DNA of 60,082 nucleotides, the filler included, from Bipalium vagum (Eukaryota): the NCBI GenBank assembly GCA_037834085.1. It is 3 parts of 3 records of this genome, joined end to end, with 100 filler letters (N's around TTAATTAATTAA, not from the genome) between each part and the next. Parts side by side here need not be neighbours in the genome. Positions count along the whole stretch, not along the records: positions 27,362 to 43,344 come from JBBMKC010134669.1; 2 more parts are not named here. The stretch is one strand, 5' to 3'. This document shows positions 11,103-48,589 of this stretch, piece after piece (within the stretch, counting starts at the first letter, position 1; each line of letters opens with the position of its first letter). A program made the position numbers and the translations under genes. The notes beneath the pieces were generated by a model. It worked only from the letters and a program-made list of their open reading frames with translations, ran no database searches and was not told the origin of the DNA.

Positions 11103-11893
11103 TTATGCCGAGTACATGTTTCCAATGGTGTAGACCGGTTGCTGTTGAGATGACATCGGATTGGTGTTGGCCAAGTATGGAGCATTGGATGACGATGAGA
11201 TGGACGACGTGTTCTGTGATGGTTGATAAACTTGACTAGATTGATTAGGAGAGTAAGAATTGGCGGAGATACCACTTATGGAGAACGGAGGAACCATGTG
11301 TGGATTGCCAGGATTGTTGGCTAGAGTGGAAATGGTGTCTGTCACACTGGTCGGTGGCGGCGGCGACGGCGTTGTATCGGAATCGTATGGAACGTTTTGA
11401 TTGTTGTGAGACAGACAAGTGTGGTGTGAGCATGGATGATCGATTTCTGTGCTACTGGGAGTGGTATTCGACTGCGGCAGATACTGACTGTGGCCGGCAT
11501 AATTGTAGTTCATTACTGCTGGAGTGTAACCGGCGGCAAATGCCGGATAATTAGAACCATACGATGAAGGATCAGAAGTTGGATTTGTAGAATATGATAC
11601 GTTAACGTTGGCTGGAATATTTTGACTATGCATATTCTTTGAACTGACTGTCGTTGTCGTTGGAAGCATATGTTGACGAGCCGTGGAGACGTTTCGAGAT
11701 CCCGAAGAGCTTCCATTAGCGCTGGACGTATTGGTTGTTGTAATTGTAGTGCCTCTCCCAGCTCGATTTTTGAAACTCGAATCTTGTCGCAGTTTACGGC
11801 GTATTAGACAAAATAAGATTGTTCCAAAGCATATAATGAATACGGCTATTGGTCCAGTGATATAAAGTGGAAAATTACTACCTTCTCTTGTTT
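11103..11893 (-). CDS. FGFRL1: FGFRL terminal exon: TM helix and ~230-aa cytoplasmic tail
   Basis: tgttcag|(E)TREGSNFPLYITGPIAVFIICFGTILFCLIRRK... open through ORF 11103-11669 to ...YTIGNMYSA*. Confidence 0.85.
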
Positions 11894-16253: not shown

Positions 16254-16293
<40 letters not shown>

Positions 16294-19200: not shown

Positions 19201-20455
19201 ATCTTCTCAATTATCTTCAAATGATATCACATTCATACTTTTTTAAAATAAATTTTCATTCTGATTGGATAAAAAGTTTGTTATAAACATTTCTAAAAAT
19301 TATAACTTTTTGTTCAAAAAATTAAATCATTTTTTTAATTAAAAAAATTAATATTTAGAAAAAACATTAAACAAATTAAGCATAAAGAGTTATAGTTTTA
19401 AGATTTTTTGAATAAAAGAAATTGTATTTTTGAAAATTTTTATCCAATAAAAATGAAGTTAAATTTATGAAAAAAATATAAAATGTGATATCATTGGGTA
19501 ATAAAATTGACTGAAGAGGATCTGAACTAAAAGATCGAAATATGTTTCAAAATTTTATTATAATGAATAAAGTTTATACTTTGAGAATTTCTTCAAAAAT
19601 AAATAAATAAAAATATAAAATTTCTGAAATAATATATTATATTTTGAGTTTTCTTAATAAAAATTGGCTTCAAAAAGGTATCTCAGTATGAAGAACAGAT
19701 CAAATCTTATATATAAAAACTGAATATTAATGCTATCATTAATATAGTAGAGCAAAAATCCCAGTTCTAAAATTTATAATTTCGTCCAGCTTCCCTTCAG
19801 ACTAACATTTTATCATCAATGTCGACCATAAATATTAATTGTAAATTATTATTTCTGGTTTACAGGAAATGATGGCCATCATGGGAATACTAATCTGGTC
19901 TGATATGAAAATTGAAATATGTATGACATAGTAACCAATGTCACATTATCATTCCTTTAGTTATCAACCACATTAGAATCGGATTTAAAAAAAGAAACGA
20001 GGAAAATAAAAGTGAAAAAGACAGGAAAGAATCACAATTTTTGGATAAGAGAATTTCAAAATTCCAGAAAATCCAGAATCAGAGATTACAAAAATTCACT
20101 TACCGGCCTTATTGGCTTTACAGTCTACATCAAAATGCTTCGAGTTGACATCTGAAGATTAAGAAAATTAGAAGGTTTAATATTATTATTATGTGGCTCA
20201 TACCAATGCCTTTGGTAATAAAGGTTGCTGTTCTCTTTCCGTATCCATTAACAGCTTCGCATTCGTAAATCTCTGGAATTGTATCGGAAGTGATTTTGAT
20301 CTGGTGAGTTTTTGACTCTGCCAGTGCATGGCTTGCACTCTTAAGATTGTTCCATTTATAAAAATCAACCTCCGTAAATGGGCATGTAAGATTGACTTTT
20401 TTATTGACCTCCATCAAGAAATATTGCTTGAGATCCCCAACTTGAACAGGTGGAC
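11103..20455 (-). CDS. FGFRL1: FGFR-like 1 / nou-darake (ndk/ndl) family receptor, 5'-partial; join(20455-20204,20151-20104,17411-17022,16414-16302,15073-14809,11893-11103), ~620 aa without the signal exon
   Basis: Six exons with AG/GT boundaries and consistent phases (1-1,1-1,1-1,1-0,0-1,1-stop). Three Ig domains (LTCP...YECEAVNGYG; FDCR...W...EGIYICTAS; ENVTVTLGSTHTFSCK...DAGTYVC), TM LYITGPIAVFIICFGTILFCLI then RRK, and a low-complexity tail with no kinase domain. Which ndk/ndl paralogue it is cannot be decided here. Confidence 0.85.
12019..12607 (+). mobile_element. internally deleted mariner in FGFRL intron, same family as 4110-4666
   Basis: Shares tttcgtatttcatttgtcagctta..atggaagat and atgggatatgtg..aaact with the 4.1-4.6 kb copy; right TIR caattactttgccaattaaata. 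Confidence 0.75.
13500..14000 (-). mobile_element. decayed Tc1/mariner-superfamily transposase fragment
   Basis: VISGPIY...SWFQK resembles IGPYFF...WFQQDG; boundaries approximate. Confidence 0.4.
14809..15073 (-). CDS. FGFRL1: FGFRL exon, Ig3 C-terminal half
   Basis: attaag|WGKRLDKK...NTLKVENIGKSDAGTYVCSVLS...VSLKSG G|gtaag. Confidence 0.85.
16254..16290. repeat. (TAA)n microsatellite
   Basis: About 12 perfect units next to an FGFRL splice donor. Confidence 0.9.
16302..16414 (-). CDS. FGFRL1: FGFRL exon, Ig3 N-terminal half
   Basis: gttctag|(E)VKSMTVIEGSLLENVTVTLGSTHTFSCKAFNSLTKPK|gtatat; resembles FGFR IgIIIa NxTVxxGxxxxFxCK. Confidence 0.8.
16667..16773 (-). CDS. putative alternative exon of the FGFRL gene, truncating after Ig2
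   Basis: TACTAAC branch point (16807-16801) 28 nt before taaatag acceptor; phase-1 frame GSNHFEFSHRRISDMANPLLICKVFVIILFKGFIK*; internal donor aag|gtattt at 16706/16705. Confidence 0.45.
17022..17411 (-). CDS. FGFRL1: FGFRL exon, Ig2
   Basis: tttttcag|...GPCFLV...VIFDCR...YSWRK...DMEGIYICTASS...YRLRVK G|gtgag; lies within ORF 17008-17445. Confidence 0.88.
19219..19496. mobile_element. AT-rich palindromic foldback/MITE
   Basis: aatgatatcacatt...ttggataaaaa at left versus tttttatccaa...aatgtgatatcatt at right; inner arms also pair (ataactttt/agagttat). Confidence 0.6.
20104..20151 (-). CDS. FGFRL1: FGFRL 48-nt linker exon (DVNSKHFDVDCKANKA)
   Basis: cttcag acceptor, gtaagt donor, phase 1-1, follows a 52-nt intron. 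Confidence 0.75.
20204..20455 (-). CDS. FGFRL1: FGFRL exon, Ig1
   Basis: tttag|GT CCA CCT...; (G)PPVQVGDLKQYFLMEVNKKVNLTCPF...YECEAVNGYGKRTATFITKGI G|gtatga; YxCxAxNGxG is FGFRL1 Ig1-like. Confidence 0.85.
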
Positions 20456-20717
20456 CTAAATTATTAATTGTTTTACTATTGAAGATAATTCATAATTGTA
20501 TTGAATTATTATTTAACACATTGTCGACAGCCAAGCCAATTATCATCTTCATTTGATTTTCACTTGAGCATTCGTTAGGAGGCCGAAATAAAAAATGTTT
20601 AAAATACATGGTTTATGTATAATAGTAATTTGAGAATCTAGAAGTTTTAATTTGTCTAAGTATAAAAAATTGATTATTTGTTTTTATATTGATAAAGGCA
20701 TTTTTATAGGTTTTAGA

Positions 20718-27361: not shown

Positions 27362-27376
27362 TTATTATTATTGTTA

Positions 27377-27431
<55 letters not shown>

Positions 27432-27440
27432 CATTATTGT
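27362..27440. repeat. (ATT)n microsatellite at contig start
   Basis: About 26 units with a few variants. Confidence 0.9.
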
Positions 27441-27644
27441 TGAAATATATATTTTAAGGAATTTTGGAAATTAAATAAATATAGGGGAATAAAAAATTCC
27501 ACGCTTTTACATTTTTATTCTGTAAAGTATTTTTATACTATGAAGTATACATTATATATATGGAAATATATATGGAAAGGCTAAAAACTAATTTGACTCT
27601 ACAGAAATTTTGAGGATACTTAAAAAAAACTTGCAATTAAAATA

Positions 27645-28200
27645 TACGAGGGTGAGTCAAAAAATAACATGAATAAGTATAAATATACGATTAATTTAAA
27701 TATTTTAATTTTTGTTTGCACTAGATTAGATTACTTCAAAAGAATTTTCGAAAATATGGAATGTCGCAGTATGACACTTTTTTCACTTTTCAGGGGAAAT
27801 CGCAAAAATGAAATTAATTGTCAGATTTAAGGGCGACCATTGGGATCGGATAATTTTAATCTGGTCGGATGTGTTTTCGATTCAATCAAAAACGGAAGAT
27901 CTATAGAAATTATTAAAGAAATTACTAAACTATTGAAAAATATAGTGAAAAGGTAATGAAAAATTACTCCAACGGAACTATCTAAAACCTAAATGTTTGC
28001 AAATTAATCGTTCAGCTGCTTCTAGAGCAAATGAGAATCTGAAATTTATGTAACAGGTTCATGTCGAGATTTTTAACAGCTGAAATGATATCTAGACGAA
28101 AAATGGCCTGTGAAAGGACCCTTCGTTTTCTGAATGCAGTCCGACCAAATTTTTTATCGAATTTTGTAACTATAGACGAGACGTCATTGAGCCTACCTTC
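27645..28200 (+). mobile_element. mariner 5' portion, truncated
   Basis: TIR TACGAGGGTGAGTCAAAAA; FVTIDET first catalytic Asp motif at ~28163. Confidence 0.7.
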
Positions 28201-28204
28201 CTTT

Positions 28205-29093
28205 CTCTAAATGAGAGTTAAAGGAATTCGTTTTCGAAATTCGAATTTAGAAGTACATTTGATTTATAAAATCTTGTATCAAAAGATGTTTTTGTCGGTA
28301 AGATACAGATTTCGTCGGACCCTGATATGTCAGTCCAACCCATACAACCAATTTCAAAGGATATTTTCTCTTTGGAAAAAATCCACCTTTTAAATTTGCA
28401 TCTTTTCTAGACACAGCATAAACGACGTCTGTTGTGTTGATTAAGCTGATCATCTGCATCAAAAGATTTTTCATCACTAAACATAATTTTGTTCACTGCC
28501 TGTTTACCAAATCTTTTTCTTAACCAACATGAGCACGTCTTTCGTCTATTGATTTGGGACTCAGATAGATAGGGAACTTTTATTTTCCTGTAGCATATAA
28601 ATCCCAAGTCATTATAATATATTATCAAGTATAATATTTCCAATAGTTTCTCTTGAACATTTGAAATCTAAAGCTAACTTTCTAGCTGATTTCTTTTTTG
28701 TTTGTTTGTTTTAAGGTTTGTTTTAATTTTTTTGATAAATGTTTTCGTTCTTACGGTTCTTGAACGTCAGCGGAATTTCGAGCAAGTAATGATTTTTCCT
28801 CTTTTATTAGTTTAGTCTATCTATAAATAGTGGACTTTGGTACCGTTTTTGCTACAGCTTCATAAATTTCTTCCGGTGTTTTCCCATTTTCATAATGGGT
28901 TTTTATCAAATTTCTTACACAGCTCTCATACGTCATTATCTAAAAGAAAATATTGCTAAAAATAACGTATGTTTATTTTGCAAGATATTAAAAACCTTGC
29001 CATAAATTAAATCAATTAATAATTCAAATTTAAATTTTTTATTTTAAAAATAATGTATTTAAACAATTTATCATTCTTTATTGGCCACCCGTT
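28205..29093 (-). mobile_element. Tc1/maT-like element, 3'-truncated
   Basis: IMFSDEKSF, NQHNRR, LVVWVGLTYQG; terminus TAACGGGTGGCCAATAA. Confidence 0.8.
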
Positions 29094-30547
29094 ATAATTG
29101 AATATTAACAGAAATTTAGTTTATTAACTGTTATGTTATTTATTATTGATTTGTTTTAATAAATAGTTCTTGATATCAACGTGCTATCTTTCTACATCAC
29201 TAGGTCATAAAGAACGAACGAACTGTAACTATAATCAATAAATATATAATTGATCAAAGTCGAGAAATAAAGTTTTAAAATAATTTAAGTCTTTCCTAGA
29301 TTCACAAACAAAGCTTATTTATTTTTCGAAAAGGATAATAAAAATTACCCAACCATTAATAAAACAATACTACATGAGAAAATAAATATAATTTATAACA
29401 ACTGTATTTATTATCTTAATTAAATAATGTATAAAAAGAAAATATCGAGGTGAATATTTTTGGAGAACATATACGAAATAATAACAAACTTGACAGAAAA
29501 CAAACTTCAGCATGATATTTTTGTAATTTTATAACTATTAGTAAGTTATATTATACAATTATTAAATTTTCTATGAATAATTAAAAGGACAATAAGTTTA
29601 TTACCATAAGCATTTTTTACCATAATTTTTTTTAAAGTATAAAGTATTATTTTAAAATCAGTGTGATCTTTGTAATTCAAATGAATACCAATTTTCTTAA
29701 AGCCAGGGTTCGTGAGTAAAGAACAGGGTTAAAAATAATAAGAAATCCAGTCTTCGAGTATTGCATTAATTATTATTCTGAAACACATTACTGATTTACT
29801 ATTCACTACTTAGTCAATTCTAAGCCGGAATGTTACCTCCCCATCTATCGTATTCCCCTGTAATGAAAGTCAACTTATTTAATTATATCAGAAAATCATT
29901 TACAGGCATATAATATGCAGTGATTACGATTCTATTAAGCAAATCTAGAGATAGAATATGATCGATATAATGATATCCTGGTAAATTGAGTTACAAAGAT
30001 ATCTTTTAATATTAATGTAAATTAATAAATTAATTAAATACTTCTAAAATTAATAACTGATTTTATAATTAAAAAAACAGAATAATACTGAGTACCGAAC
30101 GCTTAGAAGAGTGAATGGAAAACATCGCTCATATGGTCCTTTTAATTTTACTCTTAAACTCTTTTCTTAATTACATTAAAGAAATAATTTTTTTCTAAGA
30201 CTATCTAAGAATAAATAAATAATTAATCAAGAAATATCAATTGCAAAAGTCCATTTTTCTTAATACAAAATATTAGAATTAATGAATTATTTTTTTTATA
30301 AGAAATGTTTCTGACATGTAATAATTACTCTATACAAAAATTAATCATTCGATAACACCCAAAATAGAATAAAAATAAAATTAAACAATATCTCTAATTA
30401 GAAATTTTGAAAAATAAAATAAGAAATCTGATCTTTTAAAATTTAAATTTTTGATAAACAATGAGCATTTTTATATTGATAATTTGTTCCCTTTCATCCT
30501 CAGAACCAATAGACAATTCTAGTATTTTCATTAGTCATTATATTAAG

Positions 30548-31605
30548 TAAGGGCAAAGGTTTTGCAACAAAAGATTCATGCAAAAATTTATTAAACAAAT
30601 TCATTAGTAACAAAAAATAATGTCGCTTTTTAATATTGAAATTTAAAAGCGTATATTCAAATAAAAAAACTTTATTTATTGAAATAAGAATCAGCCAATT
30701 CAACATACTTTAGTCAACAAGTCAGAAGTTTATCTATGCCCGTTTATTAAAATTCCTGACTTCTGAAATCGATCATATCGTTGAAGGCTTTTTAAAAATC
30801 ATCCTGATTTCTGAAGCATTTTTCCTTAAAGACGTTTCGCAAGTGTTTAAAGAAATGTTAGTCAATGGGTGGAGGGTCTGGCAATTATAGTGGAAGAGGT
30901 ATGGTTTCATAGTCCAACTGTTTAATTTCTTTAAGACCGATTGTGCCACATGTGAACAAGCGTTATCATAAAGAAGAATCGATTCTTTCTTATTGACTAC
31001 TGATGACTGTTGTTATCGAAGTTTCAAATGCATTTCGTCGATTTCATAAAAATATTTTCCTACCGTAATGGTTTCACCTGGCTTTAAAAAATGTAATCAA
31101 TCAACATCACATTCTTTTGATGTAAATCTTGTTTTAGACAATGTTGTTAAGCATTGAGCAGAGGGATACCGATTGCCATAATTCAGTTTTCATCTCACAT
31201 CTCAATAAAGGGATTATTATTGTTGAGGAAAATGAGTGACGAGGCAATTTCAAATAGACGATTTTTTTGGTTTTCGTTCAATTGATGAAAAACAAATCTG
31301 TTCAACTTTTCTCCTTTACTAATTTCTCCAAAGTGGTTCCAATTTTGTTTAAATAGAGAGATCCATTTCCTCTTCAAGTTCCTGAACTGCTGTACGTGGA
31401 TTTGCCTTCACCAAAGTCTTTAAATTTTCCTTTTCAATGATAATCTTTTAAATATCATTTCTATTTAAAGACATAATATGGAAAGATCAAATAGAAAAAA
31501 TAAAAATTAAGCAACTAATATTTTATTATTTTGAATTATTACTAATCTGAATTTTTAAAAATTTTATTTTATTTGAAAGTATTGCAAAACCTTTGCCCAT
31601 TCCAA
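30548..31605 (-). mobile_element. decayed mariner with both TIRs
   Basis: gggcaaaggttttgcaa (30551) / ttgcaaaacctttgccc (31582); LYDNA and degraded YSPDLAP remnants. Confidence 0.8.
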
Positions 31606-32370
31606 GTCAAATTAGTTTTTTTACAAAGAAACTGTAAGCTGTCAAAATATGTCGTCACAATAACAAAAATATAACAAATCTTAGCCAACAAAGAATATTT
31701 TCGAATTTCTAAATTTTATTTATTCTATGAATATAGTTAACTATCACTGTAAACATTGATAAATTAATGACTTATTAGAAGATTTTAGAAAAATGGATAT
31801 GTCTAATAATTTTTAGAATTTAATATCACTGTTCCTATTGATAAAAATCTAAAATCAAACAACAAACAAAAGTTTATATGTTAAAAATTTATTATTTATT
31901 GTGTAAATAATTTGGTTTTAATTATCAAGAGTAATAAAAAATAAAAATAGTCAGAAAAATTTATATGCATACAAATCTTTTTAAAATGGAGAATTAAAAA
32001 TGAGATTAATTACAAGCTCTATTTTCAAAATTTGACTTGTAAATCTTAATTCAAAAAATATGTCAGTTTTTATTTTCAATTAGAAAGCTTTCCATTGTCA
32101 ATTTTAAAAGAAATTCTAATCAGAAACGAAACGAATTAACTTTTTAAAAAGATAATATTTATGAGAATCTTCTTCGTTTCTCAATTGTATATTGTTCAAA
32201 AACGAAAAAATTCAAATAGAACTGGTTCAAAATTTCATTGATTTTAAGCACTGTCAATTCAATCAACTTCTATTCAAATCTAATAAAGTTATATAATAGT
32301 TATATATTATGTTGTAATATTATTGTCGTGATTTTGAACAATATATATTGTATATATTTAAATTGTAATA

Positions 32371-32607
32371 TATCAGGTTGTGTAGTATGAAATTTGTAGG
32401 TAATGAGATTGCCAACTTTAATTGTTGTTTATTTGTTATCGGCTTGATATTTTACCATTGTTTTTTGTGTTGGTAAATTATATATCTGTCTTGTTTGAAA
32501 ATATCATTTTAATCTGATAAAGTATAAATCAATTGTTTAAATTAATCATTAATTTATTAAAAAACTTTGTTTTTCATTTTACAAATTTCATACTACACAA
32601 CCTGATA
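32371..32607. mobile_element. mariner (Mos1/mauritiana-like) MITE
   Basis: Perfect 28-nt inverted ends TATCAGGTTGTGTAGTATGAAATTTGTA including the TA target site. Confidence 0.9.
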
Positions 32608-32914
32608 CAATTATTAATAAATTGTAATATTGTATTTACAAATAATAGTTAAAAATCAATTGATAACGTAATTTCTTTATTATTTAGGACTGTCACCCCA
32701 TCTTTCCACCAGATATTTATAGATTTCCTCAGAAAGAAATCAGTCAATCACTAATTAAGCTCATATTCATCTCAAATGTATTGTCTTTCATTTGGTTAGA
32801 GGCTAATTTTGACAGTATTTGCTGTGTGCGTTTTAATGAAGAAGAATGAATTTGGCTCATTTATCTTGTGTCTTCTCCTTAATAATGTCGTTTATTCTAC
32901 CTAATAGATTCAAA

Positions 32915-34107
32915 CAGTAGTTACCATTAAATTAATGACATACAAAAAATTTTTTTTACGTATAATTGAAAACTAAGCCAAAATAATATACATATAAATA
33001 TTTATTATGCTTAAGTGATATTGGTATCGAATTAATGAAAAGTTAGTGAATTTATATTTATTCGTTTTGCTATTCGTTTCATATAGATTTTGGGTTATAA
33101 ACAAGATTTATGTGATTTCAAAAAAGGTCAGATTGTAGCTCTGAAATCTGAAGGCTTGAAAGCTTGAAAGCATGTCTGATGAAAAATACTAAAAGAAAGA
33201 ATTGCCAACGTGCTCGCAAAACAAGTGCCCGTGATGATTGTTTTTAAAATCCGTAGTTACGGCATGTTCTATGACGTCGTCTGCAAGAATTAGCCAGCTG
33301 GCAAAGGAAAGAGGCATTGACGTAAGTGCACGATCTCTACGTCGACGACTGGTGAAGTATTTTGGTATATTAGCAAGACGTCCAGCAAAAAAACCACTAT
33401 TGACAAAAGCTCAAATAGCTGGAAGAATAAAATTCTGCAAAGAGTTGAAGGACAAACCACCTGAATGGTGGCATCAAGTTATGTTCACAGATGAAAGTAC
33501 GTTCCAACAAGTAAGAAGTACAGGTTAAAATTATGTCAGACGACCATCAGGCCAGCGGTTCAACCCCAAATTTACTATGAAAACTGTTAAGCATCCTCCA
33601 TCTTTGATGGTATGGGGAGGAATAACTGTAAAAGGAACGTTTGGTCTACATATATTCCAAAAAGGCGAGACAATAAATGCTCAAAAATACATAAGCGTCA
33701 TTGATAATAAAGTCAAAAATCACATTACGGGATTGTCCGTAAATGGTTCACTGATAACAGTAAATGTTCTTCAAAATTGGCCATCCAATTCACCGGACCT
33801 AAATGTTATTGAAAACTGCTGGTGTATTATGAAACAAAAGGTTGCTGCCCATCAACCAACCTCTGAAAAGTGTGGAGAACGGATATAACGCCAAATTATT
33901 GTAAAAACTTGGTTGAAAGTATGCCTAGGCTTATACAAGAAATACTTGACAATAAGGGTTATTCTTCTAAATACTGACATTTATCAAAAATAAATGTAAA
34001 TAATGTTGTAAATAAATCCCCTTGTATTACTTGCTCTGAATTTTATATATATTTTTATACTTTATCTTTATTTTTTAATAGTGTCCTTAATTTAATGGCC
34101 ACTACTG
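32915..34107 (+). mobile_element. Tc1-family element, near full length, disrupted transposase
   Basis: TIRs CAGTAGTTACCATTAAATTAA / TTAATTTAATGGCCACTACTG; RRPAKKPLL, VMFTDESTF, TVKHPPSLMVWG, WPSNSPDLNVIENCW; stop at 33526 and internal deletion. Confidence 0.92.
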
Positions 34108-34497
34108 CATATAGTTGCTTGTCGAATTGATGGTTTTTCTGGATCATTTTGGTAGCGTATATAACTAATCCAATTCAACCAAACCTAATCCCATGATTTT
34201 CTTGGATTGCAAATCTTGTTTAATTCTGGACGTTGAGATTTCCCGGAGCCAACCATTCCTTCCTGTGCCTCAAGTTTGTATAAGAACACCATTCCTCCTG
34301 CCCGTAGTCATTCGATAAAGAAACTGTTCTATGTAGCAAGATTTTTGACTTGAATATTTAAAAAAATTTATTTAATTTTTCATTCATCCGATATATTACA
34401 TATTCAGTTATTGACTATACCCATTTGATTTTTAATTAAGTATATGAATATAGTTATGATTTTAAACAAAAAAATTAAAATAATAAAATAACCCAAC

Positions 34498-34707
34498 CTT
34501 TAAATCGCAAACAACTCTGACTTCTCCAGATTCTATGAAAAACATTTCTAAGCCAGGTTTACCTTGTTCTAAAATCATTTCTTCATCCTCATACGTTCTT
34601 GAAATTAAAGCGTCAGCTACGTTTGTTCGATCATATGCACTAAGTTCTCCAAGAAGAGCTACGGATTGCAAAAGATTTTCGTACATTTGGCGTTTCTTAA
34701 AAGCATT
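34498..34707 (-). CDS. PRKAR2: PKA-RII exon, N-terminal part of CNB-B
   Basis: tttcag|[16 protein letters not shown]...VADAL...[15 protein letters not shown]|gttggg. Confidence 0.9.
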
Positions 34708-37700
34708 CTGAAAGTTTTTCATAGTTAAATATTGTGAAAATTGTTTCAACGATTTTTTAAAAATACCCAAAATTTAAAGAAATTAATACTTATGAAAAAA
34801 ATATTGAGAAACAAACAGAAATGTTACTAATTTCACTGATGCATTAATTTCTTATTCAAATCTTCAAGTGTTCAAAAGATTATTAAGAATTTGGTAAAAT
34901 CTAAAATTAAAGCTGAAAAAACACGATTTAAGTCATAAAAATATTCCTATTATCCTTTATCATTTATATACAAATCTTATAATACTAATCTATGATAACA
35001 ATAAAGTTTGACAATATTTAGTTAAAGTAAAAAGAATAAATAAAATTATTTTCAAAAAGACAAAGAAAAAGTCCATAACAAAATCTCTTCAAATTATTTG
35101 ATAAAAGCAACTGACAGGCCGAGTAAAATTCCGCTTGACAGCCACAACTCTTTAGAAAGCCTTGAGATAAAATATATAGAATGAATTTTGTTGTAGATCT
35201 ACCGTTATTGATTTTTTTCAAAAGGAAATTCAAAATAAACCTAACTCGGGAAGGAATATATCAGAGCAGTAGCAATAAAGTAGATGTACATCAATAAAAT
35301 AAAAGTTTAAAAGAAATAAATCTTAATAAATTTTAAATTTTAAAAAAAAATAATTTATAATATTTTTTAAACTTTTTAATAATATTTTAAATAATTTAAT
35401 GAATATTAAAATAAAATTTTAATTTTATAAAATCTTACAAAGGAAATTATTTTATAAAGAAAATTTTGATTTAACCATATTTAGTCATGTCTTCTACTCT
35501 TCTTTTATAAAGCTTTCAAAAACAAAAGGATCAATGATTCTCTTTTTGCAGTCAAATTTTTAATATTAATTATTGATTATTTATTCATCTGGTATTATAT
35601 GAAATATTAACCTTTTCTTATTTGTTTTCGATTTGAAGCACAATATACATACTTTTAAAACAATATGTCGAAATGTCTTTCGATCCATTATCCAAAGAAT
35701 TCCGGAAGTCTTGGCAACAATTGTTGCTGCACGAGGAGTGTTATACATCAATGCTAATTCTCCGAACGAACCAGAATTTGTATATTCACCAAGTTTGATA
35801 TCATTGACCAAAATATCAAAGATACCTCTGAAGAAAGAAGAAAACCACCAAATATAGAGATGAAATATAGGTTTCTAATCAAACCGAACTTTTCGATAAC
35901 ATAAAAATCATCACCATCATCTCCTTGTTTTATAACGACTTCATCAGGCTCAACTGATATTTCTCGCATAGAATCAATAACTTTACTTCTTTGCTCCTTA
36001 TTTTTGGACGATTAATGCAGGTATATTTTAAAAAAGATAAACATACTTCATCTAAACTTCTAAATAAGAATATTGGCTTAATAGCTTCCACCAGCCGGGA
36101 CCTTTGAACATCGGTTTTAGAATACACGACAGGCTTGTCCTCTTCTTCATCCTCCATTTCTGGATTAAAGCTCTCGGCAGCAACTGTGGAAAAATTAATG
36201 AATATCGATTAACGATTCTTAATCTCATTAAGTCGTCAATTAAGTCTCATAAAATCTTGCTGATCCGAAATTTAGTTTAAAATAATTGAAATGCAAATTT
36301 TGCTAAATCTCAAATCATATTTTCTCAGTAAAAATTGTAAGTATAAATCTTGTTCTAACGAAAATTTGTCTCATTTCACAAGAGGTTTTAACATACTGGG
36401 GATCGGTATATCCTTTTCTTTTTCTTACATGGAAAGAAATTAGAAAAACAAAACTGTTTTGTGTAATTAAAAATATACTAATTTAGAAGTTTAAAAAAAA
36501 AAGAAACTTACCGCTCTGTCGTCTGCCTCTTTGGATTTGCCTTTCTAAATGTTAATAAAAAATAAAAGTATATCATAAAGAAACAGAAATTAAAGAAAAA
36601 CTTAAATTGCGGAAAAGTTTAAATTATGAAATAAATTAATACTTGAAGTTAAAAAATGACATGTCTTTATAAAAGATCTGTTTTATTCAAAGAAAATTGA
36701 TATCTGTGAATACATTTGAAGAAAACATTCCTCGTGATTACCTTTGCTGAAATATCTCGTCTATACTAGAACATCCTTTCTTTCGTATTTCAATAATTTA
36801 TAAAATTTTAATTAATGAAAACTTCATGAAATTACTTTAATTATTATTTAATTATATTATATTAATAAATATTAATCAGAGAACACACTTGCAACCAATT
36901 CATTTTTACTTTCCTTTGCTTGGATATTAATCTCTAGATATCGATGTTTTATTAATAATGATTTTCAAATCTTTCGCTCATCAATATTATCAACATTGCT
37001 TATAATTATTATAAATTCTTCTACATTAACATTGCATTTTTGAGCAATTAATTTTTTGAATGATCTAAGGTTTTACTGGTTCTGCTTAATTGCGGTTGCT
37101 CACTCATTCGCGTTCCGAGGTGACGCTGTGTCTTACTCACAAGAAAGTAATAGAAAAGATTGTAGGTCATGCAGATCTGAAATGAAATTCAATCACAACA
37201 AAAACGAAAAATTATTTTAAAAATAAAATGACAACGCCTGGAATATTGCAAGCTAATATTGTGTACCAATTTGAATGTAATGAGTCTAATGCCTATGCAT
37301 AGGGGATTCAAAGCATCAATGTTCAAAAATTTTTATAAACACAAAATAAATCAAAGCAATTTCAAATTTCTTATGAAATTAAATGAAAATTCTTTTTCTT
37401 TTGGATGGAAATTGATCTACCACCAGAAAAGATATTCCACGCTTTATTTAATTAAAAAAGTTTAATTTCATTTTTATTAATAAAATCAATATATATTAAA
37501 AAATTGATCAATTATAAAACGTCGGCCTAAATCAATTAGACAAAGATAATTGAAAAATATTGACCAAAAGTTTAATTGAAATTTAAAACAGTAAATTATT
37601 TTTTTCTTATCAAAGAATAAAATGTTTTTTTCTTTTGTCTGTCAGAGTTACTGAGAATAAAATTGAATGTAATTTCACTTGCTATTGTGGCGTAGTAAAC

Positions 37701-40700
37701 AAATATTTCCATTTTTATTCCATGTGTCATAAATTAAACAATCTCAATTTGAAGGTTCATTTTTCATAAATTATTGACACAATTAATTTTTATTGTTATA
37801 AAAAATATTTTCATCATACTCTTTTCTGAGTATCATAGTTATATATTGTTATTAGATTAGGTATCTTGACAATATTTTTCTTAGAAGTTGGCATAGTTAT
37901 ATTCTTGTGTAGTCATTTTTAATTAAGAATTCAAAGTCGAAGCAATAATTATAATATATTTCATTAAATCCGATTAACCAAACAAACTTTTCAAAATTGG
38001 ACCTTGCCTTTTTATTAAAATTAAATTATTTACTTTTTTAAAATTAACCAACATTTATTTAAAATAGTTATTTAAAAAACGTAACATTATAATTTTTAAA
38101 AACTTTAAATTAAAAACATTTAATATTGGTTAATCTAGGTGCGAGGTCCTTATTTTAAAAAATTCATACAAACTAATTCTTCGAATCACTTCTTATAGGC
38201 ATAATTTCATATTTAATATATATTTTATTTTCATATTTACGAAGTTCAATCAATATTGATATATTTTATATTATACCCCGAAATTTCAAAACTATGTACT
38301 CTAACTCTTATTATATTAAAAACAAAATGTTATAGGGGAATATTATAAATAAATTATTTTAAGAAACTAAAAATGTAAAATTATATTAAAATTAATACAG
38401 AGTTATGCAGAAATATATAGAAAAATATTCAGAAATAAATATTGGAAATGTACACTAAATAAATTCCCTTCTCACCAAGGATTTTTCTATAAACCCTCTC
38501 ATGTTGCGAAAATAATCACTTAAATCGTTATCATCATGCATAAGTACTTTGGTAATCAATTTTTATAAATAGTTCCGATCTATAATGGTTCTCATAAAGG
38601 ATGATATTTGCGACTTGTAGTTGAGGCGAGTATGGTGGCAGAAATCTGTAAGCAATACGTCGTTCTGTCAGTAACTTAATAACATTTTTGGCGTGATGGA
38701 ACCCGCAATTGTCCATCACCAATACATCCTCAGGATTTCGATCGAAATGATTGTATAACTTGTCACTACTAAAGTCCATAAAACTATCTCCATCGAAAGA
38801 CTTATCTTTGATTTCGAAGCATAAAATTCCTATAAATCTGATTTAATTAATAAACAGATGAGAAAACAATGAAACCTGTCATTTTAATAGCAGCCATACA
38901 GCTGATATTTTTGGCTGACTAAAATGCAATCAATTCAAATAGAAACAATCGAATATTTTTTCTATATTTTGAATGGAATTGATTTATTTTTGCATAGAAT
39001 TATATATATTTTGAATTTTCTTCTATATATTTCTGCATAAACCTGTAAATTTCACACCTTACCTCTAATTATTATAAAGTTATATAAAGCGGTTTTTGAA
39101 AAGTTGAAAATCAAATAAATGAAAAAAACAAAAAAGAACCAAAAACTAATTAACAAAAATCAATTATTTAATATATTTTTTAATTTTCTTATTAAAATTA
39201 AGAAATATTTTAATTTATATAAATGAATTTTGAATTTTTTCTTCATCTGATTATCAATAATTTTAACATTTTTTGACAATAATTTTTCATTATTTAAACA
39301 TGATAAGATAAATAATTGTATTAGGATCACAACGGATCACAGTTTGGATTTCTAATAAATATTATTTTTTTACTATTTGCTATCATTATTAAAAATAAAT
39401 TTTAAATATAAATTACTAGCTACATTACTTTCATTTACAAAATAATGTTTATTTGTTTGAAAACTTTTCAGTTTTACAATAAATTCTTTAAATTTTAATA
39501 CATGCATAATACAAGGTGAAACCGAAATCTCTGCTAAATCAAAATTATCGGATAATTTTATTTTTAGGAGCATTTCGTTTTTCACATCTAATTCCCAATA
39601 ACTAACGTAGTAGTCTCGTTTATTTTATATTTTAAAGAATTTAATTTTAATTAATTAATGTCAATTTTGTGGATAAATTTTTATCAAAAAACTACGGAAA
39701 TTATGTGACTTAACACAAAAAATAGTTTAACCATTTTTCTTCTTAATTAAATTTAATGAAAATCATGTTTAAAAGGATAATTAAAAATTCCGAAAAATGT
39801 TTTGTAATTAGTTATGAAATATATCTTAATTTCACTGTTTTCAAAACGACCTGTAGTTTGATTTTCAATCATGAATAAATTAATGGTGAATAATCATCCT
39901 TAGTAATGAGACAAATTTTCATCTTATTGAGAGAAAATTTTAAATTTTGTGTATCAGATAACTGAAAAATTCATCTTGGTCACTTGTGAGAAATTTGAAC
40001 AAAAGTTATGATTAATTTTAAATTTTTCCAGAAAAAGATAATGCAAAAGTAGTTTCAGATATTGAAAGAATCTTATGGCTTGATATTTGTAAGATATAGA
40101 AGATATGCAATTTCAATAAGGTAAGACTTAGAAGGCATATCCAAGAAACCCTACAGCTATTATAAAGCAAATTTAATGGTATTTTTATGTCACTTGACAA
40201 ACCAAAAACCATAGGTTAACTAAAAGAAGAAATTTTCAATATACGGAAACCAAAATTTTTATAAAAGTTCATCAATAGTATACTTTTGTACGTAAGAAAA
40301 ATATTGTACTTGTATTTATATTCAGCATTAATACCAAGAGACTTTAGAAAGTTTATCTCTTTCTTCATAAGACTTTCTAATTTCTATAGTTTTACAACAT
40401 TTATTTTTACCTTAATTAAACTATATTCTTCCTTCTTAATAGTGTATGAATTTTGTTTTTAAAAATCAAAGAAAATAGATTATCTAAAACCTTAAAACTA
40501 TTTAAAGGCCGTATATTTTGGAAAAGTGTGAAGAAAAGGCATTTATTATTAATATGTTCTCGAAATAAGCTGTAAAAGAATTTTAACTTTTACCTATTAT
40601 ATATTTAGTAAAGAATTCTTTAAAATTTTCATTAAAAATGCTCTGATGTCAATTTTAAAACACTTAACATCAATCATTTTCTTACAGTGAAAAGTTATAA

Positions 40701-42426
40701 AATCTTTAAATTATTTTCGTTTATGATTAAATTTCAATAATAAACTTCAACATCTAATTGTATGCAACAAAAAGAACAATTCAATTTCAGTCAATGGTGG
40801 CTAATTTGTGCATTCATTAATATTCCTATAATCATAAAGCAAATTAAAATGAGAACATAGTTTCATTGACAACACTTCATTGTAAATCTTTGAAAAATGC
40901 AAATTTTAAATGACCACAATTTGAGAAAGAAAAGAAACTAAAGCAGAGTTTATTATCAAATCAATTAATGGTCTTCTTAACTCATATATACTAACCATTC
41001 ATTAGTACAAAATAAGTTCAATAACAGTCCATTGTATCTTAGTTACAACAGTTAAGAGCCACAATGACAAGATAAAAATTATTAGAATTTTTTTTCTAAA
41101 GAGAACCTAACAGTAACAAATTAAAATTTTTAAAAGATATAAATATATAATATTTTACTTTACATTTTATGGAAAGTAGATTTATTTTTTATTAAATAAA
41201 ATTAATCAAATATTCCACAAAATTTTAAAAAAATTTTACTACTTAGTTAGAAAATGGCAATAATTAGTGATTTTAATTTAATAAATCGATTTTTATCACA
41301 TTGAATAATAATTATATTTTGTTACATATGAAAGAACCAATCTCACACAGGTCTTAACAAAAATGTACGTTGACTTAATATTTCTTAGAAAACAACCAAA
41401 GAAATATAATTTTTATAACTTATCAAAACGAAATTAATTGAATTGTATAATTATAAAAATTATACATTATTTAATTCTGAAAGTTAGAAAGAAATTAATT
41501 TTGAAAGATTAATTAAGAACATTTATTATTAAATTCTTAATTACAATGTACGATTAAATAATTTTTTAATTCAATTAAATGAGAGCTTTGTTAAAAAAAC
41601 ATTATCTAAGCCAGATTTAAAATAATAAATTATATATAATTTTTAATGCAAAATCAAAAGAAATATTGCCTCAATTTCATAAAATTTTTATAATACCGGG
41701 ATTAACTTGATCTAATTTTTTTCATTATTTTAATTCTTTTATCATTTATGCAATTTACATGAATATATTATTTAAAAGTGAATTTTACAATAAGACATTA
41801 AAATTAATAAAATATTAATTAAAAACAGAGAATATAGCTGATATTTTATGTTAAAATGTAGTTATTTTTCCAAAATGTTCTCCGATGATTATGAAATGAA
41901 GTTATCAGACAAAATCGACATTGCAATGTTTAATTGTACAAAAATAATCGTTATGTAAATATATAATTATGTACATAATTATATTTTCCAATATTTATAT
42001 TATTTCAAGTTACTTTCATGTATTAGACGTTATTTTTCACTAATTAGAGAGCAGAAGTGTATGTCTTAGAACAGATATATTTTTAAATAATATTATTGCT
42101 CTCAAATTTCTATCTGTATTTTTATTATTTATTTTCAATTATTTTTCATCAAAAAACAACACATTAATTATCAAAACAATGGAAAACTGAATATTATCTA
42201 ACATATTTTAAAAAACTATTATTATTATTGAAAAAGAACCGGAAACCAAACTGTAACAAAAAATCGATAAATTCAGTCAAAAGGAAATTTATTGAACAAA
42301 GAAGAATTTTTTTATAATTAACTAATCAATCAATTAATCAATGAAATCGAACTTACCGGTCTGTTCATTGTCGAAATCCGAAACGTAATGGTTTAATCTC
42401 GAAAGTATTTTATTGATATTTCCCAT
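34498..42426 (-). CDS. PRKAR2: cAMP-dependent protein kinase type II regulatory subunit, 3'-partial; join(42426-42357,36544-36512,36183-36047,35996-35890,35827-35653,34707-34498)
   Basis: Inhibitor site RGRRQSV (Ser = RII type), AESFNPE...KTDVQRSRL...LFRSLD, CNB-A with [12 protein letters not shown] and [21 protein letters not shown], start of CNB-B (VADAL...EQG...FFIESGEV); phases consistent. Confidence 0.9.
35653..36183 (-). CDS. PRKAR2: PKA-RII exons 3-5 (36183-36047, 35996-35890, 35827-35653), CNB-A
   Basis: Overlapping ORF-track fragments stitched across 50- and 62-nt GT-AG introns; [15 protein letters not shown]. Confidence 0.92.
36512..36544 (-). CDS. PRKAR2: PKA-RII 33-nt exon encoding the inhibitor site ([11 protein letters not shown])
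   Basis: tttag acceptor, gtaag donor; joins to give RRQS-V-AAE. Confidence 0.85.
38398..39045 (-). mobile_element. deleted IS630/Tc1-like element in PKA-R intron 1
   Basis: ~45-bp TIRs CAG(A/G)GTT(T)ATGCAGAAATATATAGAA with TA flanks; [11 protein letters not shown]...FLPPYSPQL. Confidence 0.85.
42357..42426 (-). CDS. PRKAR2: PKA-RII putative first coding exon [23 protein letters not shown]
   Basis: ATG with in-frame TGA ~45 nt upstream; strong ACCG|gtaagt donor in phase 1, matching the next exon. Confidence 0.6.
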
Positions 42427-43344
42427 AATTGTTGATTGGAAATTATTAATTTTCTTTCGTTTCACAAGTCAAAAATATTAGTCGAAAGCAAATCAATTTT
42501 AATGTGTACACATATATTTATTGATAAACATTTTCATAATTATAAATATATGTATAAATAAAATAAGAAAATCTCAGATTCTTATCACATCTCTCATTTT
42601 ATAACACAACACAAGCGCGCGCAAATGCATTAATCAGCTCTCTTCTTTTTCTTCTTCACACGACAGCAATAGCAGCAGCAAAAATAATGTTATACAATAA
42701 TAATAATAATAATAAACATCATCATCATCATTTAGTGAGTTGCTGTAGCCTGCAGGTTTTGTAAAAACATCAATGGGCTGTGTAAATTTTAAATAAATTA
42801 CCAAACTCATTGGACCAAGTTGAAAATCACACACAAAAGAAAACAATAGTGTGGACTCAATCACACCATCACCATCATCGTCGTTGTCTTTTTCGTCATT
42901 TTGTAACAGCATCAAATGATAGTCTATTTAGTCGCAGCCCTTTTATTAATTTTCCCTTTGAATATTGTGTAACAGAAACATGGGACATTTTAAAACATTT
43001 TTTCGGGTGAGAATTAAAATCCATAAGAAATTTCTAATATATGAAATATGTATTGTTTTTGTTGCCATTGCTGCTCTGTAAGTGGCGCAATCGTTCCGTG
43101 AAAAAATCAGAGAGATTTGATGTGTGAACCGTATAATACGGGATATGTTATTGAGTCCAAATATTGACGTTTGCGTTGTCAAAAATTGGCAGTGTGTCTG
43201 GTTGATGCTTGTGTGTGTGTGGTTTTGTGTGTGATCGTGTGTCCGAACCAGACTCTCATGTAAGATCTCGATTGTCACATGCATTTTATCATGCAGTTTT
43301 GTAGCTATTCTAATAGGAGAAATTTAAGAAAATTTATTATATAT

Positions 43345-44994: not shown

Positions 44995-47595
44995 TCATTT
45001 AAAAACAATTGAAAATTCTGTCGTACCATCTGGATGTCCTTGTCTGTATTCTTTCGGTTCATATTTTAACATTGGGACTTTCAAACAGCGCTTACATTTA
45101 AGAAGGACGATTGCAATGGCCAAAATGACGGATACTAACAGAGTGACCGTGATCATACATATCATAACTACTAAGTCTTTCTCAAGAAAGCGATATTCTG
45201 TGAAGGGCTGCGATATCTCCGTTAGAAAGTTGATTCGAACAATGGTGGTGTTAAAAAGGGCAAATTTACCACTATCTGAAACTTTGATAACCATTCTAAT
45301 AGTGTCTGGCGTCGAACTCATCGGATGTTTCACAAGATATAAGGAGCCCGTCTTTTGAGTTAAGCGAAATATCTCTAATTCATTTCCCTGTATAATTTCA
45401 TAGTTCAATGTGGAATTTAATCCCAAATCTGCATCGGTAGCTTTGAAAACGGTAATCAATTTCCCAAGGGTTTCATACCTCGTAACATTGAAAGTGAGTC
45501 CACTGTCAGAATACTCAACCCATTGAGGATAATTGTCATTGACGTCTTCAATTTTTATCACGACATCAACAAAAACACGGTGGCTTAAAGGTCCACTGTC
45601 CCAAGCTTCAATAGAAAATGAATGTAAATCAAATACCTCTCGATCCAGCGATTCTCTTGTCGTGAATATCCGTCCATCTGAAGTGACTGAAAAATAAATT
45701 TTGGCTATATGGCTCTTTTTCTCATACGGTTTTATGACCATTGCATATGAAATTTGTCGGTTTATGCTTTCTACGTCTGCATCATCAGCTGAAACCGATC
45801 CAACATATGTATTGAAGGATGTACCTTCATAGATATGAAATTCGTAAACCAACTTTTTAAAAACCGGAGCACAATCGTTTACATCTTTAATTTTAACCCT
45901 GATTGATGTTACACTTGAAAGTATCTTCTCTGTACTTTCAGAATCCACTATATTTCTTCTATCATAAACGGTCACTTCCAATTTGTGCTCTGCTGTACTT
46001 TCCCTATCAAACACTGCGTTGGTTTTCAGAATTCCGGAAAACTCATCTATGCTGAAATAAACATGATCGCTTTTATAAATTAGCTGTGAATTGATACCTA
46101 TATCACAGTCAGTGGCATTTAGCTTTGCAATGAAGGTCTCAATAGGCAGTCCTTCGTCGATATACACTATGGAGACCGTATTGGAAAACTGAGGAGTACA
46201 GTCGTTCTTATCCAGAACTCTTATATTCAGTAATTTCCTAGACATTTGTTGTGGATAACCGTCATCCTGACAAGTGATAACAACTTGTAAAAACTCATTT
46301 ATTTCCCTATCAAGAGGCTTTGTCAAAAAAATGGTATACTTCGTAATGGCCATTGTTTCAGATTGGATTCGAAGTAGCTTAAAACCATACATGTTACACT
46401 TGCAGGAAATGATAGTGGAACGATTATCAATGTCTTCCGTTGTCAAAGTAGCAATTATCTTTTCTTCCGATATATTTTCTTCAACGAACAAAACATTATT
46501 CGAATTATTTACCAGAGGTAAGATACCTATAGTTGGAGGGTTATCATTCTCGTTTTGAACCTTCACAATAAGAGTTATTTCTGCGACATTTGAACCATCT
46601 GTCACTTGTATTGGTAAATTGAAAATGTTTTGATCAGAATCATAATCCAATACTTGTTTAACGAAAATCTTACCATCTTTGGGATCTATATAAAACTTGG
46701 ATTTTTCTTCGTTACTCATTGAATAGCCAAAGGAATAGGATAATTTATCATGGTCAGAGATATCATTGTCTTTAGCAATAGTTTGACACAGGAATTGATC
46801 TACCGGATTGTTTTCTTTAATATGAGCCTCCAATTGGGGTTTATCGAAATATGGTGGATTATCATTGATATCGGTTATACTTATGATGAGAGATGTGGAT
46901 CCAGATAACGGTGGTGAACCGGAATCTTCTGCTATTAACAAAAGTTCGATTTTATCAATTTTTTCACGGTCAATATCGGATTCCACTTTAAGCAATAATT
47001 GATTCCAGGGTACCTTTTGAGAAATAGAACTATAATCTAAACTGAAAAGTTTCAGTTGAGATCTATTCATATACTCTAATGTATATTTGGAAACAGAATT
47101 CTTTGGTGAGAGATCTGGATCTTTAGCAAGGGGCAAATGATATTTGGAACCGATCTTTGTGTGTTCTGGGATGTTAAGTAGAATTTGCGATTCCGTCCAC
47201 AATGGAGCGTTATCGTTGATATCTTCGATGTCAATGCGAATTTCAAAGTAGTCCAGCTGAAGTTTAAGTCGGTTAATGAGAACTAGTAAATTTAAACAAC
47301 AGCAATGGTTTATTTTTATGCATATCTTTTCTCGATCAATGTTACTTTTAACAACCAGTTTTCCAGAGACAAGGGAAATAAATTTATTTTCTTTCATCAT
47401 TTGAAAATGTATATTTTCTAAGCCGGGAATTAGGGGGTTTTTATGTTTATAGCTTTCTCGAAGATCTCCAATTACCAACCCCAGTTCTGAGTGCTCCTTA
47501 ACTTGAAAGTCTAAAGAAATGGATTCTGTCAGAGTTATGAAGGAATAATGCAGTAGAATTAATGACAAATGTGTAACACTACCAAGAAACTTCAT
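44995..47595 (-). CDS. protocadherin (7 cadherin repeats, delta-1-like architecture); one large exon with signal, ectodomain and TM; probably spliced at GATG|gtacga (45027) to exons outside this contig
   Basis: 866-aa ORF from ATG 47595; signal peptide; repeated DRE, DxD and DxNDNxP motifs (six linkers); TM LVVMICMITVTLLVSVILAIAIVLL then KCKRC. Confidence 0.95.
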   Translation of the reverse strand: MKFLGSVTHLSLILLHYSFITLTESISLDFQVKEHSELGLVIGDLRESYKHKNPLIPGLENIHFQMMKENKFISLVSGKLVVKSNIDREKICIKINHCCCLNLLVLINRLKLQLDYFEIRIDIEDINDNAPLWTESQILLNIPEHTKIGSKYHLPLAKDPDLSPKNSVSKYTLEYMNRSQLKLFSLDYSSISQKVPWNQLLLKVESDIDREKIDKIELLLIAEDSGSPPLSGSTSLIISITDINDNPPYFDKPQLEAHIKENNPVDQFLCQTIAKDNDISDHDKLSYSFGYSMSNEEKSKFYIDPKDGKIFVKQVLDYDSDQNIFNLPIQVTDGSNVAEITLIVKVQNENDNPPTIGILPLVNNSNNVLFVEENISEEKIIATLTTEDIDNRSTIISCKCNMYGFKLLRIQSETMAITKYTIFLTKPLDREINEFLQVVITCQDDGYPQQMSRKLLNIRVLDKNDCTPQFSNTVSIVYIDEGLPIETFIAKLNATDCDIGINSQLIYKSDHVYFSIDEFSGILKTNAVFDRESTAEHKLEVTVYDRRNIVDSESTEKILSSVTSIRVKIKDVNDCAPVFKKLVYEFHIYEGTSFNTYVGSVSADDADVESINRQISYAMVIKPYEKKSHIAKIYFSVTSDGRIFTTRESLDREVFDLHSFSIEAWDSGPLSHRVFVDVVIKIEDVNDNYPQWVEYSDSGLTFNVTRYETLGKLITVFKATDADLGLNSTLNYEIIQGNELEIFRLTQKTGSLYLVKHPMSSTPDTIRMVIKVSDSGKFALFNTTIVRINFLTEISQPFTEYRFLEKDLVVMICMITVTLLVSVILAIAIVLLKCKRCLKVPMLKYEPKEYRQGHPDGTTEFSIVFK

Positions 47596-48589
47596 CAAAC
47601 CAAAGTAATGACATTGAAATTATGTTTTAAAGACATGTTTATTATAAAAAATAATTATCAAACATTTTTTCATATATGATTGGTTATTTATACAACAAAT
47701 GAAATAGAAAAAAATTAAACAATACATTCTCTTGAAAATTAAATAAAAGAAAATAATTTCAAGATTTGTTTTTCCTTAAAAATTGTCTGGGGATAATTTA
47801 TTTATTATCCTTTATAAAAATAATTTCCTCATTTTCCAGGACAATGAAATAGCTATGGAAACATTAATATAATAACGCGAACTATGAAAAATTAATTTCA
47901 TTTTTTATGTGTATTAATTAATTTTAAAATTGTATTATATAAAATTTTTTTTTAATTTTTAGAGTAAAAATTTCTGAGTACACAAGGCTAAGTATTTTTA
48001 AAGCATTTTTTATTATCTTGGAGATTTATTTTTCAAATAATTTCTTTCTTTTAAGAAGAATAAATGTCCCTTTCGTATAGGTCTAATATGATTAAAAACA
48101 ATACCTCAACGGGTTTTGCAAAATCATAATAATAAAAAAGTTTCAAGTTTTTAAAAGAAAAATTACAAATTTACATATAGAGAATAAAAAAATTTAACCA
48201 AATTTTCATCTCTCAATATTACAGTTACACCTTTGTGTACGTAGAACGTCTGGGTTTTGTCCTTTACAGTATGATCAACGTTTTGTTAATCTTTTTCATT
48301 AATGAAAGAAATAAATAATTTTTTGCTGGTACTGCGGCTGCATAATGAAAAAGCTTTGGTACAATGTACTCAGTGATAAGAGGTGGTCTGTTATTGCCGA
48401 GATGAAAAACAATAAATTTTCGGTTAAATCGAATTTGCTTCATTCTAACGAGCTCCTTATAAAATTAGTAGAATAAAGTATACTCTTCCACAAAAAAGTA
48501 CGACAAATTAAAGAAAAAAACAAAAACAAAAAATTTTGAATATATTTTAATTGTTTTTATTTTAAAATATCTGTTATTTAATATTCACT

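What the first reader, a model, noticed from the sequence alone, without database searches (positions are those of the whole stretch)
36512..42426. PKA RII subunit apparently lacking the dimerization/docking domain and starting Met-Gly-Asn (possible N-myristoylation)
Seen: the only convincing upstream coding exon I found (42426-42357; strong donor, correct phase, in-frame stop upstream) gives [38 protein letters not shown], so the inhibitor site comes ~30 aa from the start. I found no D/D-like exon in 36.5-43.3 kb. Known: metazoan RII normally has an N-terminal D/D domain for dimerization and AKAP binding; acylated, D/D-less R subunits are known from apicomplexans. Inference: a monomeric, AKAP-independent, membrane-targeted PKA holoenzyme in a flatworm, as a paralogue or an alternative first exon. 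Caveats: residue 6 is Lys, not the preferred Ser/Thr, and a D/D exon could lie beyond the 43345 gap.
Basis: partly seen in the sequence, partly recalled or inferred. Interest (0 to 1): 0.7.

Follow-up and report, generated by a model that had tools for sequence, protein, structure and literature searches.

The report
Flatworm PKA subunit's helix-bearing alternative start
This flatworm gene for a protein kinase A regulatory subunit likely keeps its normal docking domain on another contig, and the short Met-Gly exon seen here is likely an alternative start that swaps that domain for a predicted membrane-binding helix, as fluke versions of the same gene appear to do.

Summary
The exons are real as read: a 70-nt Met-Gly exon (42426-42357) joins in frame to a type II PKA regulatory subunit body, with the inhibitor serine at residue 34. 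The gene is probably not docking-domain-less. Its contig ends 918 nt upstream, and an orphan D/D exon plus linker exon on contig C160445 joins the same acceptor in frame. That exon differs from the sister paralogue's D/D exon exactly as much as the two bodies differ (pS 0.81, pN 0.12 against 0.71-0.86, 0.10). The Met-Gly exon is still probably coding: it has the only GTAAGT donor in 6.8 kb, encodes an amphipathic helix, and is the best of 31 frames against the short helical N-termini of the trematode orthologues (tree support 99/96), which lack D/D. Best reading: one gene, two starts, giving a D/D form and a likely monomeric, helix-targeted form. Myristoylation is weakly supported: 0 of 37 orthologous N-termini start Met-Gly, residue 6 is Lys, and there is no Cys. 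No RNA was available and the two contigs are not physically linked. D/D-less animal R isoforms are already known (C. elegans kin-2).

The parts
42357..42426 (-). Candidate alternative first coding exon (Met-Gly-Asn start, 23 codons plus 1 nt, phase-1 donor); predicted amphipathic helix over residues 2-18
   Evidence: donor, shuffles; hydrophobic moment 0.56, p 0.004; likeness to trematode N-termini
42427..43344 (-). Upstream 918 nt to the contig end; GC 0.32-0.35 over 42600-43199 against 0.236 for the whole 6.8 kb, with short tandem repeats; possible promoter or 5' UTR (inferred); holds 27 ATGs
36545..42356 (-). Intron, 5.8 kb, phase 1; no D/D match; holds a high-copy repeat near 37.8-39.2 kb
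36512..36544 (-). 33-nt exon with the type II inhibitor site RRQS; phase-1 acceptor that fits both the Met-Gly exon and the C160445 linker exon
   Evidence: same 33-nt exon in sister paralogue, 76% nt identity
36047..36183 (-). Exon: end of inhibitor site and start of CNB-A
35890..35996 (-). Exon: CNB-A
35653..35827 (-). Exon: CNB-A with intact phosphate-binding cassette (Glu and Arg present)
   Evidence: Pfam cNMP_binding 33.8 bits
34498..34707 (-). Exon: first half of CNB-B; last exon found on this contig

Best explanation
This is likely one type II PKA regulatory subunit gene with two starts: a D/D exon and linker exon (contig C160445) and, inside the following intron, the Met-Gly exon, each predicted to splice in phase 1 to the 33-nt inhibitor-site exon at 36544. 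The first form would be an ordinary dimeric, AKAP-binding RII. The second would lack D/D, so it would form a one-R-one-C, cAMP-activated, autophosphorylatable holoenzyme that cannot bind AKAPs; its first 18 residues are predicted to fold as an amphipathic helix that most likely places it on membranes or on a partner protein. The helix, not a myristate, is the feature shared with the trematode orthologues. Shown: exon structure, phases, the orphan D/D exon and its divergence, the tree, the helix pattern. Inferred: that C160445 belongs to this gene, that the Met-Gly exon is spliced and translated, monomeric state, and membrane binding.
For: D/D exon: the sister's D/D exon found an 80%-identical orphan on C160445, 127 nt, phase-1 donor, followed by an 81-nt linker exon; joined by coordinates to the window body it gives 290 codons with no stop; no CNB exon on that 5.3-kb contig. 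Divergence from the sister: D/D pS 0.81/pN 0.12; exons 4-6 pS 0.71-0.86/pN 0.10; two orphan last exons 0.78/0.09. Only two bodies of this group were found, two D/D exons and two last exons. Met-Gly exon: donor statistics; moment p 0.004; top of 31 ATG frames in the 6.8 kb against both trematode N-terminal profiles; type B profile, one-residue shift, reached by 15 of 2087 genomic ATG frames and 146 of 20000 shuffles; type A profile unshifted by 38 of 2087. Orthology: window gene plus sister group with six D/D-less RRQS-type proteins at 99/96 in a 29-row tree (96 SH-aLRT in a 58-row quick tree). Trematode genes show two alternative short N-termini on one body. Precedent: tick and scorpion RII listed as D/D and non-D/D isoforms on scaffolds of the same length; kin-2 isoforms without D/D (PMC9692727).
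Against: No transcript evidence for either junction. C160445 and the window contig do not overlap and C160445 ends in a repeat, so the link is by parsimony. The orphan D/D exon scores 18 bits, under the Pfam cut-off of 22.4. Likeness to trematode N-termini is modest and was tested with two profiles and three shifts (25 of 2087 frames reach the same best score; type A best-of-three 85 of 2087); single-sequence scores were p 0.009-0.9. The sister's matching intron has no ATG frame with a good phase-1 donor, so the exon is not conserved in the closest paralogue. 27 upstream ATGs lie in the 918 nt above the start. Two later CNB-B exons were each found once, not twice, and neither lies in the 7.1 kb below 34498. 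Net charge of the helix is only +1.
Confidence: 0.6

Rival explanations
1. The Met-Gly exon is a chance frame in an intron; the gene makes only the ordinary D/D-bearing RII.
For: A complete D/D route exists. 40 of 1000 shuffles give an equally long frame at such a donor. No counterpart with a donor in the sister. No RNA support.
Against: Donor, A at -3 and G at +4 of the ATG, amphipathic pattern (p 0.004) and best rank against both trematode profiles all fall on the same frame; orthologues use this very architecture.
Confidence: 0.17
2. The short form exists and is N-myristoylated on Gly2, giving a myristate-plus-helix membrane anchor like apicomplexan PKA-R.
For: Gly2 is present. Two Lingula RII isoforms lack D/D and start Met-Gly, one with Thr6/Lys7 and one with Cys5/Ser6. 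Toxoplasma PKAr1 is targeted by Gly2 and Cys5/7 (PMC6152992, passages).
Against: 0 of 37 N-termini of the orthologous group start Met-Gly. Residue 6 is Lys; the preference for Ser/Thr/small residues there is recalled, not tested. No Cys, net charge +1. Met-Gly starts occur in about 7% of gene products (PMC4200515, passage).
Confidence: 0.13
3. The gene has lost D/D altogether, as trematode orthologues appear to have, and the C160445 exons belong to a third, unassembled paralogue.
For: No physical link; the assembly has 272,664 contigs; none of 37 trematode-group N-termini shows D/D.
Against: Two D/D exons, two bodies and two last exons with matching pS and pN; in-frame phase match; no third body found.
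Confidence: 0.07

Closest known systems
C. elegans kin-2 isoforms without the dimerization/docking domain (review PMC9692727, passage seen; primary paper Pastok 2013 seen only as a reference)
   Same: One animal R gene giving forms with and without D/D; the latter implied not to form tetramers or bind AKAPs.
   Different: kin-2 is type I-like; here a type II subunit with an RRQS autophosphorylation site, and the replacement N-terminus is a predicted amphipathic helix with counterparts in flukes.
Trematode RRQS-type RII (S. mansoni Smp_131050-like; proteins P0123-P0128, P0135, P0155, P0167-P0196)
   Same: Orthologous by tree (99/96); short helical N-termini in place of D/D; two alternative N-termini converge just before the inhibitor site.
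   Different: None of 37 N-termini starts Met-Gly; none seen with D/D, whereas this genome keeps D/D exons in both paralogues; the type B helix ends in an RRxS site that the window exon lacks.
Lingula anatina RII isoforms X1/X2 (P0166, P0122; database annotation)
   Same: Animal RII, no D/D match, Met-Gly start.
   Different: Better acylation motifs (Ser6 or Thr6, Cys5); not in the flatworm RRQS group in the tree; no significant amphipathic moment over residues 2-18.
Toxoplasma PKAr1 (PMC6152992, passages seen)
   Same: No docking domain, Gly at position 2.
   Different: PKAr1 has Cys5 and Cys7 and tested acylation-dependent targeting, and no D/D form; the window exon has no Cys and the gene likely also makes a D/D form.

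Membership tests
PKA type II regulatory subunit | Substrate-type inhibitor site RRxS | tested here: met
   RRQS at 36512-36544, residues 31-34
PKA type II regulatory subunit | CNB-A with phosphate-binding cassette | tested here: met
PKA type II regulatory subunit | Complete CNB-B | tested here: inconclusive
   First half in window; later exons absent from 27362-34497; candidate tail exons on C8936 and C214785 are unlinked
PKA type II regulatory subunit | N-terminal D/D domain | tested here: inconclusive
   Absent from the Met-Gly form; orphan D/D exon on C160445 fits the gene but is not physically linked
Flatworm RRQS-type RII group | Groups with trematode D/D-less RII on the CNB body | tested here: met
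   99/96 in 29-row careful tree; midpoint root, no one-clade test run
Flatworm RRQS-type RII group | Short amphipathic N-terminus from an alternative first exon | tested here: inconclusive
   Moment p 0.004; profile likeness 15 of 2087 and 38 of 2087; no transcript
Acylated apicomplexan-type PKA-R | Gly at position 2 | tested here: met
Acylated apicomplexan-type PKA-R | Palmitoylation cysteines near the N-terminus | tested here: not met
   No Cys in the 23 codons; Toxoplasma has Cys5 and Cys7
Acylated apicomplexan-type PKA-R | Small or hydroxyl residue at position 6 (rule recalled) | tested here: not met
   Lys6; no passage on this rule was found
Acylated apicomplexan-type PKA-R | Acylation-dependent membrane location | not testable with these tools
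   needs labelling and GFP fusions
D/D-less splice isoforms of animal R subunits (kin-2 type) | Both isoforms transcribed from one gene | not testable with these tools
   only a DNA contig set was listed

The most novel reading that the evidence does not exclude
Flatworms run an AKAP-independent arm of PKA signalling: an old first exon, kept from free-living worms to blood flukes, replaces the RII docking domain with a self-targeting amphipathic helix; flukes have fixed it as a docking-less paralogue with a PKA site at the end of the helix as a release switch, while this species keeps both starts and may have added a myristate.
Probability: 0.25. Interest if true: 0.65.

Novelty: new variant of a known kind. 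Interest (0 to 1): 0.4.

Why it matters
PKA location is usually set by AKAPs binding the D/D dimer. A conserved flatworm RII form that carries its own targeting helix would give a simple, knock-down-friendly model of AKAP-independent PKA placement in an animal, and it points to an overlooked feature of a schistosome R subunit whose body peptide is seen in adult worms (PMC7089424 supplement). The case also shows that a Pfam scan alone misses the real D/D exon here (18 bits) and would have wrongly confirmed a loss. I found no description of these helical N-termini in ten searches of the held library, which lacks most subscription papers.

Tried and rejected
RNA: no RNA holder listed; the one run is DNA-like contigs that end where the window contig ends and show no exon-to-exon joint among the 15 of 154 joints printed; a second laying on C160445 gave no result, so depth and continuation of that contig stay open. 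PF02197 scan of the genome missed C160445; its other hits were assigned by eye to other R genes, sperm-protein-like or RI-like domains. Search with one exon found a single distant protein among 69 candidates; no protein of this species group's own paralogue pair appeared among the 120 best listed of 3134 and 4152 hits. The Met-Gly exon has no second copy and a trematode type B N-terminus found nothing in the genome (an empty answer shows nothing). Rejected: the Met-Gly exon as an internal linker exon, because the two AG sites in its open frame fall in phase 0 and 2, not 1 (read). The idea that the helix docks like an AKAP on another subunit's D/D dimer was folded with a Fasciolopsis pair: no answer, score 0.22 under the mark 0.34, no evidence either way. 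Schistosome phosphoproteome supplement: no N-terminal peptide, but the model there is 33.8 kDa, shorter than the 349-363 aa forms, file 5 was cut and 4 of 14 files were not searched. The exon-7 check was in the wrong frame and was redone. One search used three wrong exon edges, corrected. The 58-row careful tree did not finish; its quick tree is cited as such, and C227324 was dropped for want of the anchor motif. The representative search never ran. Lys6 frequency among myristoylated proteins was not counted (1 of 28 parts of the supplement read). Earlier scan notes: nothing relevant.

Full report
Setting. The window is a pack of three stretches. The middle one, 27362-43344, is the whole contig C134669 (15,983 nt) of a 441-Mb assembly in 272,664 contigs. 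The '43345 gap' is therefore a contig end, 918 nt above the ATG. Named relatives of its R genes are flatworms; a free-living flatworm is inferred, not shown.

The observation. Six exons on the minus strand give an open frame of 244 codons with GT/AG edges. The first has A at -3, G at +4 and the donor CCG|GTAAGT in phase 1. It is the only GTAAGT of 8 strong donor-like sites in 6.8 kb; 40 of 1000 shuffles give such a donor with an in-phase ATG frame of 20 or more codons and 3 of 1000 one containing Met-Gly. The upstream region is richer in GC than the intron. The body is a type II subunit: RRQS inhibitor site, intact CNB-A cassette, first half of CNB-B. The rest of CNB-B is not in the 7.1 kb downstream, so the gene runs off both ends of the contig.

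The D/D domain is probably there. A sister paralogue on C167823 has the same intron positions and about 80% amino-acid identity, and begins with a D/D exon and a linker exon, then a 5.9-kb intron, then the same 33-nt exon. Searching with its D/D exon found an 80%-identical exon on C160445 that the Pfam scan had missed (18 bits against a cut-off of 22.4). It has the same length (127 nt) and phase, is followed by an 81-nt linker exon, has no CNB exon on its contig, and joins the window's 36544 acceptor with no stop. Its divergence from the sister (pS 0.81, pN 0.12) matches the body exons (0.71-0.86, 0.10) and a pair of orphan last exons (0.78, 0.09). Two heads, two bodies and two tails were found, which is what one whole-gene duplication leaves. 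The link is inferred: the contigs do not overlap and C160445 ends in a repeat. Two intermediate CNB-B exons were each found only once.

The Met-Gly exon is probably still real. A profile search biased to this gene pair brought up trematode RII proteins without D/D. In a careful tree of 29 CNB bodies the window gene and its sister group with six of them at 99/96 (rows chosen from the 58). These genes carry two alternative short N-termini on one body; of 40 sequences seen, 37 had an N-terminus, none started Met-Gly and none showed D/D (Pfam-scanned here for 8; precomputed for 4 more; the rest by eye; 15 of 29 members of one cluster were listed). The window peptide has a hydrophobic moment of 0.56 over residues 2-18 (p 0.004 against shuffles), like both trematode types (p 0.004-0.13 for most rows). 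It ranks first of 31 ATG frames in the 6.8 kb against both profiles; 15 of 2087 genomic frames match type B as well and 38 of 2087 match type A as well, and 25 of 2087 reach the same best score over both profiles and three shifts. This is modest support for common origin. Against it, the sister's intron has no such exon with a donor, and no RNA could be tested.

How it likely works. Inferred from established PKA biology: the D/D form dimerises and binds AKAPs; the short form keeps the inhibitor site and both cAMP sites, so it would bind and release one catalytic subunit, but cannot dimerise or bind AKAPs through D/D. Its N-terminal helix is the likely address, most simply a membrane surface, possibly a protein partner. 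Myristoylation is the weaker claim: Gly2 is not shared by any orthologue, residue 6 is Lys (the preference for small residues there is recalled), there is no Cys, net charge is +1, and Met-Gly starts are common (about 7% of gene products, PMC4200515 passage). N-terminal acetylation would fit the Met-Ser/Ala/Thr starts of the orthologues (recalled rule).

What is known. Some kin-2 isoforms of C. elegans lack D/D (PMC9692727, passages). Toxoplasma PKAr1 lacks it and is targeted by Gly2 and Cys5/7 (PMC6152992, passages). Database isoforms without D/D occur in Lingula (two starting Met-Gly), Tubulanus, crustaceans, a tick, a scorpion and Branchiostoma. S. mansoni has six predicted R genes (PMC3117856, one passage); a peptide of Smp_131050 that matches the body of this group is in the adult phosphoproteome (PMC7089424, passages and supplement rows; unseen supplement parts could hold more). 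PMC7048800 passages gave nothing on residue 6. Ten searches found no account of the flatworm helical N-termini.

Verdict. Observation partly confirmed; the gene is most likely an ordinary RII gene with an added D/D-less start (0.6), not a myristoylated D/D-less paralogue. New variant of a known kind, interest 0.4; the bolder reading of a flatworm-wide self-targeting PKA form has probability 0.25.

Noticed in passing
L030 (G000:C211498): Intronless R-subunit frame whose first Met lies 10 residues before the RRKS site, with no D/D in frame: a second candidate D/D-less R subunit.
   Followed up: no
L013/L026 (G000:C209776:213-2219): 674-codon frame with a D/D domain, a degenerate R body and then a second R body with its own inhibitor-like site: a tandem, four-CNB R-like protein.
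   Followed up: no
L040:6912-6992 (sister intron 2): ATG frame that scores best of 2087 against the trematode type A N-terminal profile but has no phase-1 donor; a decayed first exon or AT-rich chance.
   Followed up: partly
P0123, P0127, P0135, P0155, P0173, P0176: The trematode type B helix ends in a conserved RRxS, a PKA consensus site, so PKA could switch its own anchor; absent from the window exon.
   Followed up: partly
   Followed up: partly
G000, several contigs: At least 14 contigs hold R-subunit-like CNB-A matches of 45% identity or more, many intronless and divergent: a large expansion of PKA R genes.
   Followed up: partly
window 33238-33885 (+) and 38537-38842 (-): Transposase-like remnants inside the gene's introns, high-copy in the DNA run (named by eye).
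   Followed up: no
window 10900-20500 (-) and 44998-47619 (-): An Ig-domain receptor with no kinase-like tail (FGFRL-like) in stretch 1 and a long single-exon protocadherin-like frame in stretch 3 (names by eye, not tested).
   Followed up: no
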